A stretch of DNA of 64,000 bases from Lytechinus pictus (Eukaryota). Shown one piece after another: positions 24,701 to 57,700 of this stretch (positions are counted from its first letter, which is position 1; the number at the start of each line of letters is the position of its first letter). Position numbers: made by a program. The DNA lies in assembly GCF_037042905.1 (NCBI RefSeq), contig NC_087249.1:49104001-49168000 (forward strand), given 5' to 3'.

Positions 24701-27700
24701 GGTGAAAATCATTTACCATAAGAAAGGATCACCAGTCATTCTTGAAGTCGCTCTTAACTTACGAACGACTTTATGAAACACCCACCAGGTGATTGAAAAC
24801 CGCAATAAATTCTTCTGCTACTTTCCTAAACCTTTTTTTTCCCTCTGTAGGTACAACTTTGTTTACAACCTTAACCCAACACTCGTCTCCTATACTAAAT
24901 GTAGCAAAGTTGGTGATGTCCACACCACTGGGCTGTTAAAAGATTGGAACTCAAAATTTAGATATAACTCTAAAATCAGAACACCTGATTTTAGAGTTAT
25001 GACATAAGTAGCAATTACCTTTTGCCTATATAGAGTTTTCTAAAGGAATTAGGAGACTCTCCTCAGACAATATAAGGTTGCCACCAGAGTATATTTCTGA
25101 AATGCAGCTTTTTCTGAGCCGCCCTTAAAATGTTTAAATTTTTGAGATAAAATGTTTTAACAGCGCAACAAAGCTACATGCATGTAAATGAATATGGTAG
25201 CACACAACATTCTACATGATTTAAAAAAAAAAGTGTTGTTTGAATAATTTGGTGTGCACGTGTGCTGGGAACTACTTGAATCTACACATCAGTCAAATGA
25301 AAAATGCTAAATATCAGTCAGTCTCCGTTGTGATGATGTGAAAATAAATCTTTCTGCAACCACTAAAAAGTGGAAAGTCAGCAAAGTGCTACCAAATCTG
25401 CAAGCTTGCTATTCTGTCCAAGTACATCAAAGAATATTGTCCATCAAATTATCTAACATTTTTTCAGTTTTCATCTCACGATACTAGTAGATGTAGATGC
25501 CTTGTGGCATTCGTTTTACAGTAGTATCATCACCGCATGGCAAAAATTATCCAGCTGATGAAAAGGCGAGTTTTAACCTAAACATCAACAAGAATTGTTT
25601 GACACCGGCTACTGGCTACCTTGTCTGGTCCAGAGAAGTAAATGACAAGCAATGCATGAGAACATTGTCTGAATGGAACCGTCACATGGTGTGAAATCAC
25701 CAGGCGTTGCGTACAATGTTTGGAAATGGGGAGAGGTGACAGATCCAAGATTGAAGGGGGCCAACTAACTTTTAAAACAGTTTTCTATTGTCTTTATCAA
25801 CAACTTTCACATTTTGTTGATAGGACCTCCTCCCCCAACTGGATCTGCTACCAATAGACTGTTATGTAGGCATGAGAAGATTTGGGGAGATTAGCAGGGC
25901 CCTTAATGCAGGAGTGTCAAGCACACCAGGAAACATTATTGCTCCAAGTCTGGCCTTCTAGCAAAGAGGGAAAAGGACATTTGAAGAGTGAAGGCAGTCT
26001 TGTACGCCAAGGCTAGGTCTCCCTGCAGATCAGAGGAAAAGGGACATTTAATGTGTGAAGATATTGTTGCACAGATAGTCTCAATCTTCCTGCGAAGGGA
26101 TAAAGGAATATCTGATGAGCGAAGGAAGTGTTGCATGGATAGTCCATGTCTTCAAGCAGATTAGGGGAAGGGACATTTGATGAACAAAGGCAGTCTGGCT
26201 CGGAACTCCATCTGCTTTAATTTCATATAATCAGTTTCTCCTTGAGTTGTTTGTTCTTGACCACCGTGCCATGCTGCTTGCAGAAGAGACGATCGTCCGC
26301 GATATCCAGGTTCCACAGGGTCAAGGTCCTGCTGCACTCGCTGCACTTCTGGCACGTCCGGTGGAAGACCCGACCTTCGAACTTGCTCATCTCGTTGGGG
26401 TAGGCGGACTTCTCGCACACCATGCAACAGTCGATCATGGGCTGGAGGGGCGGCCGCGAGGACGACGAGGGATTAGTGGACAGTCTGGAGGGTCCCGTTG
26501 TGGGTGCCGTTGACCCTTTGAGTTTGTTGGAACTTGTTGATGAGGGCTTTGACGGAACCTATACAACAGAGAGAGTAGGAAAAATCAATAGATAATCAGT
26601 ATTTTACCTAAAATAAAATGAAATTACATTATCACCATAACTACCAAGTAACATTTCATACAAAAATAATGATAAAAATAACAACAGAGCCAATTACAAA
26701 ATAAATACAGAAGGTTTGAACAAGAAAGAGAAATTGATAATGAAAGATTTATTTCATACTTAAATAACAGATCATCTTAGATTACTGGAAGAAGTTTGGT
26801 TACTGCTTAATGTACCCACACAATATTAATTGGAAGATAACAATAGCATTATTGTAATAACAGCAATAATTTTGCACCTAAGAATAGATAATGTTTAGAT
26901 ACAGATTGCCATAAAAAATTTCATTATCAATATTTAGATCATTATTATTACCAGCAACTGAAATCATTTCACAAAAACCTAACCTTGAACCCCCCCCCAT
27001 ATCCTCCTGCCCAGTGCCTCAAAGGGCTAAAACCTCTCAATATTCCATAGTTCAGTTAATCTATCTCACATAATGCAAACAAGATTATCAAAATTACACA
27101 TTCCATTAACAAAACATGCCTTCACATGCTCAAACATGCCTACCACACTCCATTAGTGAAAATTTGGAAAGGAACTACTTAATGATGTTGTCATGGTTAA
27201 TTTCAGACTACATCAATAAGGAAACAAAGTATGACAGGTGCCTTATTCAATTTTCATTTAGGGGGATGCAGATACAATTCTAAACAATCTAATGCCTACT
27301 AGGACTGACTAGTCCTTGTACTAAACCGCTGGCAATCAAATAGACGGATTACTCAGTGGGTTAAACACTTTGCCATCCAGATCAGATATCATTACATTGC
27401 ATCACAATATTGATACTGTAAATGGACAAACATACATGATGGTATATGACTCTAAAGCATCATTTATTTTCTGTTCCTGTTTCATCAGAAGAAAAGGTAT
27501 ATTATATGCTGTGTTAATAAGTTGTTCCATTTCCTCTTTTCAGTTAGTTTTAGTGTAGCAGCTGTTCTTTGCATGCCATGAATAGAATGGATCACAACTT
27601 CCCATCGCTATTCAACTAATTAAAGATAATTATCAGAAGCCTTATTTGGTAAGCTTTTAATATTAAACATACTAATTACTATCATCATTATTTTTCTTCA

Positions 27701-54700: not shown

Positions 54701-57700
54701 ACAGTTATATGGACAAAACAGTTATATGGCTGGTATGCAAATGAGGAGACTATGACGTCATCCACTCGCTATTGCTTTTGTATTTCATTATATGACATAT
54801 GAAATATTCTAATTTTCTCCTCATTGTCAAGTGATACAATAATTAATTCCTCCCTGAACATGTGGAATTAGCATTGTTTAATACTATATGGTTCAGTCAA
54901 GTTGGTCCTTATTGTCAAATCTATAAAAATTAAATATTGTATAATTCAAACAATAAAAAACAAAAGAAATAGTGAGTGATGGACATCATCGACTGACTCA
55001 CCTAGTTGTGCATATCACTGTTTTGTGAAAAATAAGCGAAACTTTAAGATGTCATAACTTTCTGATTTTACATCCGATTTTGATGATATTTTCAGCACTA
55101 TATGCTAGTTTGATTTTTCTCTATTTATTCAAGTCAGCACTTTCCTGGGGTGGACTTGACCTTTAAAACTATGCATCGCCTCAAAGTTAAAATCATATTC
55201 CACAGGCAAATATTGATGTTTCTATTTTCCAAAAATAGTTACTATGGCAATGAGATAAACCATCAATAAAGATGAGTTTATATAATGGTTCACCCGACAA
55301 ATTTTCATTTATTACCAACGTGAAGGAATATTGTGTAATGTGAGCTCACTCTACTTGCAGCTTTGTACTTGGGGGGAGGGGGGGTCCTGTTAAGTGTGAG
55401 AATGAATAGCCTGATTTTCCAGTTTCTTCTTAACCATGTATATTCCTAAACACAAACTCTACCCTTCTGAGATGATATGTAACATAACTATTTGCCTTTG
55501 AAGTCAGAGGGAGTTGGGATCAACATGCTTAAGGTGCAATAAATTGAAACTTGGCAGAAAACAAATAAGAAAATCTATTCAATTATTTACATGTAGTTTG
55601 TAAATAACATCTTTTGTTCTTATTCCAGTTGGAAGATGGCCAATATAGATTAACATGAAAGATGCATCCGTCTAAACCAAGAGAGGCCAAGACAATGGCA
55701 AGGTGACCCAATTTGATTTCATCATCTTTTTCATTTCAAATTATTTGTAAAAGCTCCTTTAAGTATTTTCCTTTGTAAAGGAAATATTTTGTTTGGTTGT
55801 ACCCCTTTTTCATCCCATGAATTTAATCAAGGATTAAAGTAACAATTGTACTGAGTAGCGAGTCCCAGTGAAACTTGGCTACTCTTCAATCCCTTAAGTG
55901 CAGCATAACTCTAATCATTTATGTTCAAGGTGTCTATCAACATCGGGACTGGTGAATTGATAGACACTAGACCTAAAATGAGATGCATAAGGACAGCTTG
56001 AAGACACTTAATTTAGATCAGGATCCCCAAATTTGCATAGGTACACCAAATTCATCACCTGCACTCTCGGCACCTACATGTCAATATTTGGGACAGCTCT
56101 CACAAATAGTGTGATTGTTTGCATCAACCTCAATTATGGAAAGCTGATGGCAACATAATCATTTGTCTACTAGCATATGCACTTATCATATTGTAAAGTA
56201 GAAACATCATGTTGATGTACCAAAACAATGGCAATAAAAAATGTAATTTTATATTCCGAGGAGCTGATTTGAAATTTGGAAATTGAGGACAGCTTTGAAA
56301 AAGCTGTATTTTAGAAATATGACAATGTTGGCAACCTCATATGCCCACTGTTGAGTCCATGGTTTATGTAGAATTCCTGTATAAATTACACTTATTTTAC
56401 CGTGTATATAAAAAAATGTCCAAATGCTGGTGCACGCTTTTGTCACAGTGCGCCAAATTGACGTGGTTATCCACGCTATTTTATTCATGAGTCCTGTTTT
56501 GAATTAATGAGTCCACTCTTCAAACAGTGGACTCATGAATAAAATAGCGCAGCTAACCATGGTAACAGGCGTCAATTTGGCGCACAGTGACAAAAGCGTG
56601 CATCAGCATTGCACATTTTTATTTACACACGCGCCTGATACGCACTAAATTAAGCGTATTTATACAGGATTTGCATAAACCATGGATTCAACCGTGGGTT
56701 TTCAAAACCACCTTTGTCAATTCGGGCCATATTGTCTGAAGACAGTCTCCTAATCCCTGTGGAGAAATCTTCCAAGGCAAAAGAAGGCTACCACTTATGC
56801 CAAAGCTAAAAAGTCGTTTTTTTTTTCTTTCTGAGCTATCCACAAATTTTGAGATTGTCATTGTGAAATTCATTGTCATTCTAGATGATGATGTCACTGG
56901 TTTTCCATATACGAAATTGAAATTGATCTAATCCTTCACACTCCTACTTAGGGTGGGGCCGTGATGTTTAATAATAAAACAAATAATGCAGCTTACCTGT
57001 TTTTAATCTCTTCATGTCGGCTGTGACATTTTGGCTCTCCTTGACGCCGATGCTCGTAAAGCTCTTCTGTAGCGAGGAATGAATATGGGTTACAGGCATG
57101 AGAACTACCTAACTTTTCCCAAACAGAGAAAACTAAAGAACTTTTCCGACATGGAAGATTCGGACAAGAAAGAGAGGGAGGGTTTTCCTATGATCTCTCT
57201 ATCCTAACAGACTAATTCTACAAATTTCATTCCCGTAAATAAAAACTACCCCCTAAACCCACCTTCGTCCCAACCTACACCCTAAATTAGACTCCTAATA
57301 GGTTATCTAAGAATAGAGGCCGCCACCGCTTTGCGTAGTTGAGGAGAGAGGGAGAGAGAGAGAGGAGAGATGAGTTGATAATTGCTCCTAGCTTCGCCCA
57401 AACAAGATGATGCAGTTTCAAAGAAGCAGACGGAAGTACGAATTTGGACGTTATTCCAAGCATGGAAGAACCGTTGAATATCAACAAGGCATATGTAGAG
57501 CAAATGAAGTTAGGAAGAAGTCCAAAGACAGAGATAACGGAAGATCTGATGCTATGAAAATCCACAGGTTAAATCACTCAGAAATAATAAATGGAATTAT
57601 TCCAACAAGAATCCATTCCAGGATGATGATCTTCACAGTGTACGGTAACAGACTGATGGTGTCACAAGTAAAGTTTCCAAAATAGATGCAGCAGCGTGAA

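What the first reader, a model, noticed from the sequence alone, without database searches (positions are those of the whole stretch)
26223..57099. Unusual domain architecture: CRACD/DUF4592-like motif + acidic IDR + repeated helical motifs + C-terminal LIM
The assembled ~890-905-aa protein joins an N-terminal motif resembling that of CRACD/KIAA1211 capping-protein inhibitors with an EPLIN/MICAL-class LIM domain. As far as I recall, vertebrate CRACD-family proteins lack LIM domains. Inference: an uncharacterised actin scaffold coupling capping-protein regulation, filament binding and LIM-mediated localisation.
Basis: partly seen in the sequence, partly recalled or inferred. Interest (0 to 1): 0.65.

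Follow-up and report, generated by a model that had tools for sequence, protein, structure and literature searches.

The report
Sea urchin CRACD-like protein with LIM
This is a real sea urchin gene for a mostly disordered protein that joins a CRACD/MISP-type N-terminal motif to a single C-terminal LIM domain, a combination also found in acorn worms, whose role in actin regulation is still only inferred.

Summary
Six GT-AG exons on the minus strand (57099 to 26223) encode an 888-aa protein identical to NCBI's automatic model for Lytechinus pictus. The last exon carries a LIM domain above Pfam's cut-off. Exon 2 matches only the last third of DUF4592, below the cut-off.

The match is still real homology. 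Orthologues in other sea urchins carry about 340 more N-terminal residues covering most of DUF4592; those exons lie outside the window. A profile of the echinoid N-module alone finds acorn-worm proteins and an unnamed protein, P0014, at 61-71 bits. P0014 passes Pfam for both DUF4592 and a C-terminal LIM.

- None of 12 family proteins has a canonical capping-protein-interaction motif.
- None of 10 has the EPLIN motif that defines the EPLIN class.
- The LIMs form their own clade.
- Only one helix outside the LIM region is predicted.

Alternative splicing toggles the acidic spacer, the N-module and the LIM. I read it as a conserved, undescribed ambulacrarian variant of the CRACD/MISP family. Its function is inferred, not shown.

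The parts
56997..57099 (-). Exon 1 of the 888-aa isoform (ATG at 57099; phase-1 end; donor GT at 56996-56995). Bases 57099-57067 are a 5' extension giving 11 isoform-specific residues. The part shared with the long isoforms of orthologues starts at 57066, after an internal acceptor (AG at 57068-57067).
   Evidence: The P0003/P0005/P0006 alignments start at 57069.
53323..53456 (-). Exon 2: the conserved end of the DUF4592-like N-module (GDVDLDLI ... AAKHRISVAPSNRRPS). Acceptor AG at 53458-53457, donor GT at 53322-53321.
   Evidence: DUF4592 scores 23.3 bits, below the cut-off of 27, over profile positions 91-124.
45240..46425 (-). Exon 3: a short conserved S/P-rich start followed by a long acidic disordered stretch. 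An internal alternative donor (exon end 46332, GT at 46331-46330, same phase) would remove 1092 nt, or 364 codons. That short form is the one seen in the S. purpuratus, L. variegatus and Diadema models.
38131..38899 (-). Exon 4: a Glu/Lys-rich disordered region with conserved islands (PKEVIIIMKD; EERRLSVAASKALFEA, here motif A; ETKAEADTK; start of motif B).
35692..35830 (-). Exon 5: the rest of motif B (the only helix predicted outside the LIM region, residues 725-737) and a conserved basic S/P-rich stretch. An alternative donor at 35628 (GT at 35627-35626) shifts the frame of exon 6.
26223..26558 (-). Exon 6: S/T/P linker, a single LIM domain (residues 822-873), a 15-residue tail and the stop (26225-26223). 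In the +1 frame, bases 26558-26476 encode the C-terminus of the LIM-less isoform, with its stop at 26475-26473.

Best explanation
The window holds the 3' six exons of the Lytechinus pictus orthologue of a gene conserved in sea urchins and acorn worms (Ambulacraria). The gene encodes a largely disordered protein with three conserved parts.

1. An N-terminal module homologous to the DUF4592 domain of the CRACD/CRACDL/MISP family. It consists of a basic Lys-rich stretch, several short Ser-rich islands and a terminal GDxDLD...AAKH+xS+APxxR+ motif. Only that terminal motif is encoded in the window.
2. An acidic spacer whose largest part is optional through an internal splice donor.
3. A C-terminal unit made of one short helix (motif B) about 96 residues before a single LIM domain that ends the protein.

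My inference is that it works as an actin-cytoskeleton scaffold. The N-module would do what it does in CRACD and MISP, which is to contact actin or its regulators. The helix-plus-LIM unit would supply a second contact or a targeting site. Alternative promoters and donors would produce forms with or without the N-module, the acidic spacer and the LIM.

Shown here: the gene structure, the homology, the conservation and the predicted disorder. Inferred: every functional step.
For: **Gene model.** It is identical to the NCBI model, with canonical splice sites and matching phases.

**N-module.**
- Echinoid orthologues carry the full module. DUF4592 scores 24.7 bits over profile positions 20-124 in S. 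purpuratus and 23.3 bits over 21-124 in Diadema.
- A profile of four echinoid proteins, run against 1.84 billion representatives, found Glandiceps P0011 as one stretch from N-module to LIM (E 4e-27). It also found the N-modules of P0058 (E 2e-13) and P0090 (E 2e-11).
- An echinoid-only N-module HMM scores P0153, P0090, P0014, P0011 and P0058 at 61-71 bits, with E at most 1e-11 at the size of that library.
- P0014 passes Pfam for DUF4592 (38.5 bits) and LIM (36.9 bits). P0058 passes DUF4592 (27.9 bits).

**LIM.**
- The LIMs of 7 core members plus the fragment P0035 form one clade of 8 leaves among 142 LIMs (SH-aLRT 90).
- Gln follows the fourth zinc ligand in 10 of 10 core LIMs and in 0 of 347 other LIMs.
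- The LIM lies 11-18 residues from the C-terminus in all 10.

**Structure and isoforms.**
- AlphaFold2 scores 786 of 888 residues below pLDDT 50, the LIM at 81-91, and predicts a helix at 725-737.
- Isoforms seen in the models: without LIM (P0006), without N-module (P0004), with the N-module truncated (P0002), and without the acidic stretch (P0003, P0005, P0006). Both alternative donors are present in the window.

**Family function, from papers.** I saw passages only. CRACD binds and inhibits CAPZA/CAPZB and promotes actin polymerisation (PMC13631292). MISP bundles F-actin with a KD of 0.76 uM (PMC9097542).
Against: - No experiment or expression data was available. All the orthologous proteins are automatic predictions.
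- DUF4592 is below Pfam's cut-off in every echinoid protein. It gives no hit at all, at E up to 5, in the two full-length acorn-worm proteins.
- What the DUF4592 region does in CRACD or MISP is not stated in what I could read. For MISP the actin affinity is attributed mostly to the C-terminal half.
- Single LIM domains have many kinds of partner.
The family's range beyond Ambulacraria is therefore open.
- Only the best 150 of 828 profile hits were listed. Weaker relatives, including vertebrate CRACD proteins, were not seen.
Confidence: 0.6

Rival explanations
1. One reading: the exon-2 motif is a capping-protein-interaction (CPI) motif like that of CRACD, so the protein binds CapZ and couples uncapping to LIM-mediated localisation.
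For: - CRACD acts through 'capping-protein-interacting motifs': a mutant lacking them fails to rescue F-actin (PMC13631292, passages).
- In non-echinoid members (P0014, P0058, P0090, P0153) the motif keeps His, Pro and Lys at the spacing of the consensus (H at 0, P at +6, K at +7), scoring 3 of 7 fixed positions where it reached the printed top three (P0058, P0090, P0153).
Against: - The CPI core LxHxTxxRPK, as defined in PMC4598739, occurs in 0 of 12 family proteins.
- In the four echinoid sequences the stretch reads AKHRISVAPS. Leu, Thr, Arg and Lys of the consensus are replaced by Ala, Ile, Ala and Ser, and there is no Pro at +14.
- The exon-2 peptide matches no PDB chain at E up to 10, CPI peptide complexes included.
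- Where the CPI motifs lie in CRACD relative to DUF4592 could not be read. The original paper, PMC6261439, is not held.
Confidence: 0.12
2. It is the sea urchin orthologue of EPLIN/LIMA1 that has acquired an N-terminal CRACD-like module. The C-terminal half would then work like the N-terminal half plus LIM of EPLIN.
For: - The best single-domain PDB match of the LIM is EPLIN (2d8y, 38.8 bits).
- A pattern based on motif B ([KRS]DR[ILMV]xx[FY][QEK]) occurs in 8 family proteins and in salmon LIMA1 (P0154). It occurs in 0 of 119 other LIM proteins, and in 0.05 proteins on average after shuffling. In LIMA1 it lies 96 residues before the LIM, the same distance as in L. pictus.
Against: - The pattern was written after seeing both sequences.
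- BLASTP and hhalign align only the LIM.
- Only 1 of 20 proteins carrying the EPLIN motif has the pattern.
- The 22-residue EPLIN motif that defines the class (Koch et al. 2012, PMC3305314, EPLIN-class passages read) is absent in 0 of 10 family proteins. All of them end 11-18 residues after the LIM.
- The family's LIMs form a separate clade.
Confidence: 0.15
3. The architecture is an annotation artefact: two neighbouring genes (a CRACD-like one and a LIM one) are fused by gene predictors, and exon 2 and the LIM exon are never in one mRNA.
For: - All the evidence for joining comes from automatic models.
- Isoforms without the LIM (P0006) and without the N-module (P0004) are also predicted.
- The span is 31 kb with long introns.
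Against: - The join is predicted independently in 5 named species of two phyla and in P0014.
- All splice phases fit.
- The intervening exons 3-5 are conserved and collinear in every orthologue.
- No other start or stop signals divide the unit.
- The LIM clade and the N-module co-occur.
Confidence: 0.06

Closest known systems
CRACD / CRACDL / MISP family (Pfam DUF4592, PF15262)
   Same: The N-terminal module is homologous to DUF4592. Orthologues match profile positions 20-124. The family members P0014 and P0058 pass the curated cut-off. Like these proteins it is long and predicted to be mostly disordered.
   Different: - It carries a C-terminal LIM domain. From recall only, the vertebrate proteins have none; this was not tested here.
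- The window's own protein scores below the Pfam cut-off.
- It has no canonical CPI core.
- The short isoform encoded in the window keeps only the last third of the module.
EPLIN class of LIM proteins (LIMA1, XIRP2, LIMD2; Koch et al. 2012, PMC3305314)
   Same: It has a single LIM of the same general type, with EPLIN the best single-domain PDB match. A motif-B-like helix lies at the same distance upstream of the LIM as in salmon LIMA1 (post hoc).
   Different: - There is no EPLIN motif after the LIM (0 of 10).
- The protein ends 11-18 residues after the LIM, so there is no C-terminal half.
- Gln replaces the usual Phe after the fourth zinc ligand (10 of 10 against 0 of 347).
- The LIMs form a separate clade.
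CPI-motif proteins (CARMIL, CD2AP, CKIP-1, CapZIP, FAM21, twinfilin)
   Same: A short basic motif sits in a disordered region. In some members the His...Pro-Lys spacing is as in the consensus.
   Different: The consensus LxHxTxxRPK(6X)P is not met in any of the 12 family proteins. In echinoids the Arg and Lys positions are Ala and Ser.

Membership tests
LIM domain (PF00412) | Profile match above the curated cut-off, with the eight zinc ligands in the CCHC-CCCH spacing | tested here: met
   36.7 bits on the exon and 32.2 bits on P0001, against a cut-off of 22.9. The ligand pattern is found at residues 822-873. AlphaFold2 pLDDT there is 81-91.
DUF4592 (PF15262; CRACD/CRACDL/MISP) | Pfam profile match at or above the gathering score (27 bits) in the window's own protein | tested here: not met
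   23.3 bits for the exon-2 reading frame and 18.5 bits for P0001, over profile positions 89-124 only. Orthologues with the full N-terminus score 24.7 and 23.3 bits.
DUF4592 (PF15262; CRACD/CRACDL/MISP) | Homology of the N-module to proteins that do pass the cut-off | tested here: met
   The echinoid-only N-module HMM scores P0014 at 67.6 bits and P0058 at 61.6 bits. These two score 38.5 and 27.9 bits on DUF4592.
[quoted passage not shown] | Binds CAPZA/CAPZB and raises actin polymerisation | not testable with these tools
CPI-motif proteins | Consensus LxHxTxxRPK(6X)P (PMC4598739) | tested here: not met
   0 of 12 family proteins have the core. The best windows reach 3-4 of 7 fixed positions, and the echinoid exon-2 stretch is not among the three best windows printed for any echinoid protein.
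EPLIN class (Koch et al. 2012) | LIM domain immediately followed by the conserved 22-residue EPLIN motif | tested here: not met
   The pattern G.Y.EGFG, taken from salmon LIMA1 P0154, is present in 20 of 154 session proteins and in 0 of 10 family members. The definition was read in PMC3305314. That paper's Table S2, which gives the motif itself, is a supplement I could not open.
EPLIN class (Koch et al. 2012) | LIM groups with EPLIN-class LIMs in a tree | tested here: inconclusive
   The family forms its own clade (SH-aLRT 90). However, the tree has 56 columns for 142 rows and most deep forks are open; EPLIN-motif LIMs are scattered, needing 10 changes.

The most novel reading that the evidence does not exclude
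DUF4592-plus-C-terminal-LIM would be an old deuterostome (perhaps bilaterian) protein class that the 14-class LIM scheme of Koch et al. 2012 missed. Its LIM has a private signature: Gln after the fourth zinc ligand, and the LIM at the very C-terminus.

On this reading, vertebrate CRACD/CRACDL/MISP are derivatives that lost the LIM. The helix-plus-LIM unit, with the same 96-residue spacing as in LIMA1, would point to a common origin of the CRACD and EPLIN lineages.

In addition, the start of the LIM exon would be dual-coding. Read in the +1 frame after an alternative donor, it gives a second copy of the motif-B-like helix (SVKALINKFQQ) in place of the LIM, so splicing would swap one cytoskeletal contact for another.
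Probability: 0.25. Interest if true: 0.6.

Novelty: new variant of a known kind. Interest (0 to 1): 0.4.

Why it matters
CRACD and MISP are vertebrate actin regulators whose conserved N-terminal domain still has no known function. An invertebrate form that ties this domain to a LIM domain gives a simpler setting in which to ask what the domain does, and sea urchin embryos are a classic actin and cytokinesis system. It also bears on how the CRACD and EPLIN lineages arose.

On the practical side, the automatic names now attached to these genes should not be propagated. They include FK506-binding protein 5-like, neurofilament heavy polypeptide, DNA ligase 1 and centrosomal protein of 83 kDa-like. 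I take them to be artefacts of the acidic low-complexity region.

Tried and rejected
- **P0101 as a family member.** This unnamed 803-aa protein has a C-terminal LIM and looked like a member in the MAFFT alignment. An N-module HMM built without it gives only 10.9 bits, which is not significant, and its LIM sits in a neighbouring clade. I dropped it; its 196.9 bits were by construction.
- **AKAP2_C or other Pfam families.** None was found in the hemichordate, P0014 or echinoid proteins at E up to 5.
- **ZNF185 and sciellin.** These were ESM Atlas look-alikes of P0014 at 0.84-0.85, below the 0.9 that the tool calls a lead only. I did not pursue them.
- **LIMA1 beyond the LIM.** BLASTP and hhalign aligned nothing else.
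- **Upstream exons in 57100-64000.** tblastn with L. variegatus P0006 at E up to 100 and word size 2 found nothing above noise.
- **Position of the CPI motifs in CRACD.** The original paper is not held, and three other CRACD papers do not give it in the passages found.
- **Rfam.** No matches in the window.
- **Joined coding sequence.** Exons were searched one by one, and the database protein P0001 was used by its id.

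
Full report
**What is there**

The window is A+T-rich animal DNA, 25-41% G+C in 2-kb steps, with four runs of N at 10890-12654 that I left alone.

The stop-to-stop frame of the last exon (26558-26226, minus strand) carries a LIM domain at 36.7 bits, against a cut-off of 22.9. The frame around exon 2 matches Pfam DUF4592 at 23.3 bits, below the cut-off of 27, and only over profile positions 91-124 of 124. The other exon frames match nothing.

The LIM exon found an 888-aa NCBI model at 100% identity and coverage: P0001, 'FK506-binding protein 5-like isoform X2 [Lytechinus pictus]'. 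It also found orthologues in Strongylocentrotus purpuratus (77% identity) and Diadema antillarum (71%). The window is therefore sea urchin, not human.

**Gene structure**

tblastn of P0001 against the window gives six collinear blocks. Reading the junctions gives these exons:

| Exon | Coordinates (minus strand) |
|---|---|
| 1 | 57099-56997 |
| 2 | 53456-53323 |
| 3 | 46425-45240 |
| 4 | 38899-38131 |
| 5 | 35830-35692 |
| 6 | 26558-26226, stop 26225-26223 |

All introns are GT-AG and the phases fit. The lengths sum to 2667 nt, or 888 codons plus the stop.

**The window holds a short isoform**

The S. purpuratus (P0003), Diadema (P0005) and L. variegatus (P0006) models carry up to about 340 further N-terminal residues. 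These include:
- a Lys-rich stretch (KKKKFKAWKSIKKIFKKKK);
- an island reading SMSEDSVF;
- an island reading SAKLKER...DDGYAQSSED.

With these residues the DUF4592 match extends to profile positions 20-124, at 24.7 and 23.3 bits, still below the cut-off.

In the window, the orthologues' alignments start at 57069, just before an internal acceptor (ctacag|AAG, AG at 57068-57067). The first 11 residues of P0001 are therefore a 5' extension of a shared exon. No upstream exon is detectable in 57100-64000, even at E up to 100. They must lie beyond the window.

**Is the CRACD-like similarity real?**

Yes, by transitive evidence.
- A profile of four echinoid proteins (A2) was run against 1.84 billion representatives. 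It gave 828 hits at E up to 0.001, of which the best 150 were listed. Most of those were LIM-only.
- Among them, P0011 aligned in one stretch from N-module to LIM (E 4e-27). P0058 (E 2e-13) and P0090 (E 2e-11) matched the N-module.
- A later search named P0011 as Glandiceps talaboti and P0090 as Saccoglossus kowalevskii. It added P0153 from Ptychodera flava (846 aa, with LIM). All three are acorn worms.
- An HMM built only from the echinoid N-module scores P0153, P0090, P0014, P0011 and P0058 at 61-71 bits, with E at most 1e-11 at the size of that library.
- P0014 (1149 aa, origin unknown) passes Pfam for DUF4592 (38.5 bits) and for a C-terminal LIM (36.9 bits). P0058 passes DUF4592 at 27.9 bits.
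- The two full-length acorn-worm proteins give no DUF4592 hit at all at E up to 5, so Pfam's model is a poor detector of this branch.

P0101 looked like a member in an alignment, but it fails a leave-one-out test (10.9 bits). I do not count it.

**The LIM domain**
- In the PDB the best single-domain match is EPLIN (2d8y, 38.8 bits). CRP, LIMD2 and MICAL1 LIMs follow.
- Koch et al. 2012 define the EPLIN class by a conserved 22-residue motif directly after the LIM (PMC3305314, passages of the EPLIN-class section). That motif, as seen in salmon LIMA1 (P0154), occurs in 20 of 154 session proteins and in 0 of 10 family members. The paper's table with the motif is a supplement I could not see.
- All family proteins end 11-18 residues after the LIM.
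- In a quick maximum-likelihood tree of 142 LIMs (56 columns, most deep forks open), the 7 core family LIMs plus the fragment P0035 form one clade of 8 leaves, with SH-aLRT 90.
- Gln follows the fourth zinc ligand in 10 of 10 core LIMs and in 0 of 347 others, where Phe is found in 216.

The LIM is thus of the EPLIN/CRP general type but is not an EPLIN-class member by that definition.

**The rest of the protein**

AlphaFold2, run with an 11-row alignment, gives a mean pLDDT of 44, with 786 of 888 residues below 50. Confident structure is limited to:
- the LIM (pLDDT 81-91);
- a helix at 725-737 (motif B, LKDRISRFQNLAT, pLDDT 56-66);
- a short terminal helix at 880-887.

Motif A (RRLSVAASKALFE) is conserved but is not predicted helical. 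The exon-3 and exon-4 parts are acidic, with net charges of -46 and -30.

A pattern written from motif B occurs in 8 family proteins and in salmon LIMA1, where it lies 96 residues before the LIM, as in L. pictus. It occurs in no other of 119 LIM proteins, and in 0.05 proteins on average after shuffling. The pattern is post hoc, however, and BLASTP and hhalign align only the LIM. It is a lead, not a result.

**Capping protein**

The CPI motif is defined as LxHxTxxRPK(6X)P (PMC4598739, passages). None of 12 family proteins has the core. The echinoid stretch AKHRISVAPS keeps only His and Pro. Some non-echinoid members also keep the Lys at the right spacing.

The exon-2 peptide matches no PDB chain at E up to 10. 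CRACD does act through CPI motifs (PMC13631292, passages). Where they lie relative to DUF4592 I could not read, because the original paper is not held. No CapZ sequence was available for a complex prediction. Capping-protein regulation therefore remains an untested idea, with the sequence leaning against it.

**Isoforms**
- An internal donor in exon 3 (exon end 46332, GTGAGT next, same phase as the distal donor) would remove 364 codons of the acidic region. This is the form seen in P0003, P0005 and P0006.
- A distal donor of exon 5 (exon end 35628) shifts exon 6 into the +1 frame. That frame ends at 26475-26473 and replaces the LIM with a 28-residue tail that begins like motif B (SVKALINKFQQ). 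The L. variegatus model P0006 has exactly this form, and its tail matches the window at 100%.
- Diadema P0004 lacks the N-module. S. purpuratus P0002 keeps only its front part and lacks the exon-1/exon-2 stretch.

**Comparison and verdict**

The protein is best described as an ambulacrarian variant of the CRACD/MISP (DUF4592) family that ends in a single LIM domain with its own signature. I found no description of it: 'DUF4592' occurs in 0 papers, and a search joining CRACD names with 'LIM domain' and 'invertebrate' gave 3 papers, the 2 listed being irrelevant by title and abstract.

That vertebrate CRACD proteins lack a LIM is recalled, not tested. The gene itself is already predicted in public annotation under misleading automatic names.

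An actin-scaffold function is a reasonable inference from CRACD and MISP (KD 0.76 uM for F-actin, PMC9097542, passages), and from the type of LIM. Nothing here shows it.

Noticed in passing
window 2306-2536 (+): An open frame matches the GRXCR1/2 C-terminal domain (PF23733, 50.6 bits, E 1.8e-13). It is probably the last exon of a neighbouring glutaredoxin/cysteine-rich (GRXCR-like) gene on the opposite strand, converging on the LIM gene.
   Followed up: no
window 26476-26558 (-), with the alternative donor at 35628: The first 83 bases of the LIM exon are read in two frames by different predicted isoforms. The +1 frame gives a 28-residue C-terminus starting with a motif-B-like peptide, identical to the tail of the L. 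variegatus model P0006. This is possible dual coding.
   Followed up: partly
window 46325-46340 (-): A consensus internal donor (CA|GTGAGT, exon end 46332) lies inside exon 3, in the same phase as the distal donor. It would skip 364 codons of acidic sequence, as in the orthologues' models.
   Followed up: partly
window 57066-57099 (-): The start of the 888-aa isoform is a 5' extension of an internal exon (acceptor AG at 57068-57067). The exons for the rest of the N-module lie beyond the window's end.
   Followed up: yes
window 15756-16764; 27940-28340; 13973-14229: Tandem repeats: 208 bp x 4.9 (97% matches), 163 bp x 2.5 (inside the last intron), and 80-89 bp x 2-3.
   Followed up: no
window 10890-12654: Four runs of N (343, 196, 149 and 615 bases) are flanked by low-complexity sequence. 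They were left as they are.
   Followed up: no
proteins P0101, P0095, P0078, P0144, P0103, P0084, P0139, P0126 (origin unknown): A neighbouring clade of proteins also ends in a LIM close to the C-terminus (CVVCGRTVYQMEKCNFDSSVLHRQC...). Only P0101 is long, and its N-terminus shows no significant N-module.
   Followed up: partly
names of P0001, P0002, P0003, P0006, P0153: The automatic names of the orthologues are mutually inconsistent: FK506-binding protein 5-like, DNA ligase 1, neurofilament heavy polypeptide, centrosomal protein of 83 kDa-like. I take them to reflect the Glu/Lys-rich low-complexity region rather than homology.
   Followed up: no
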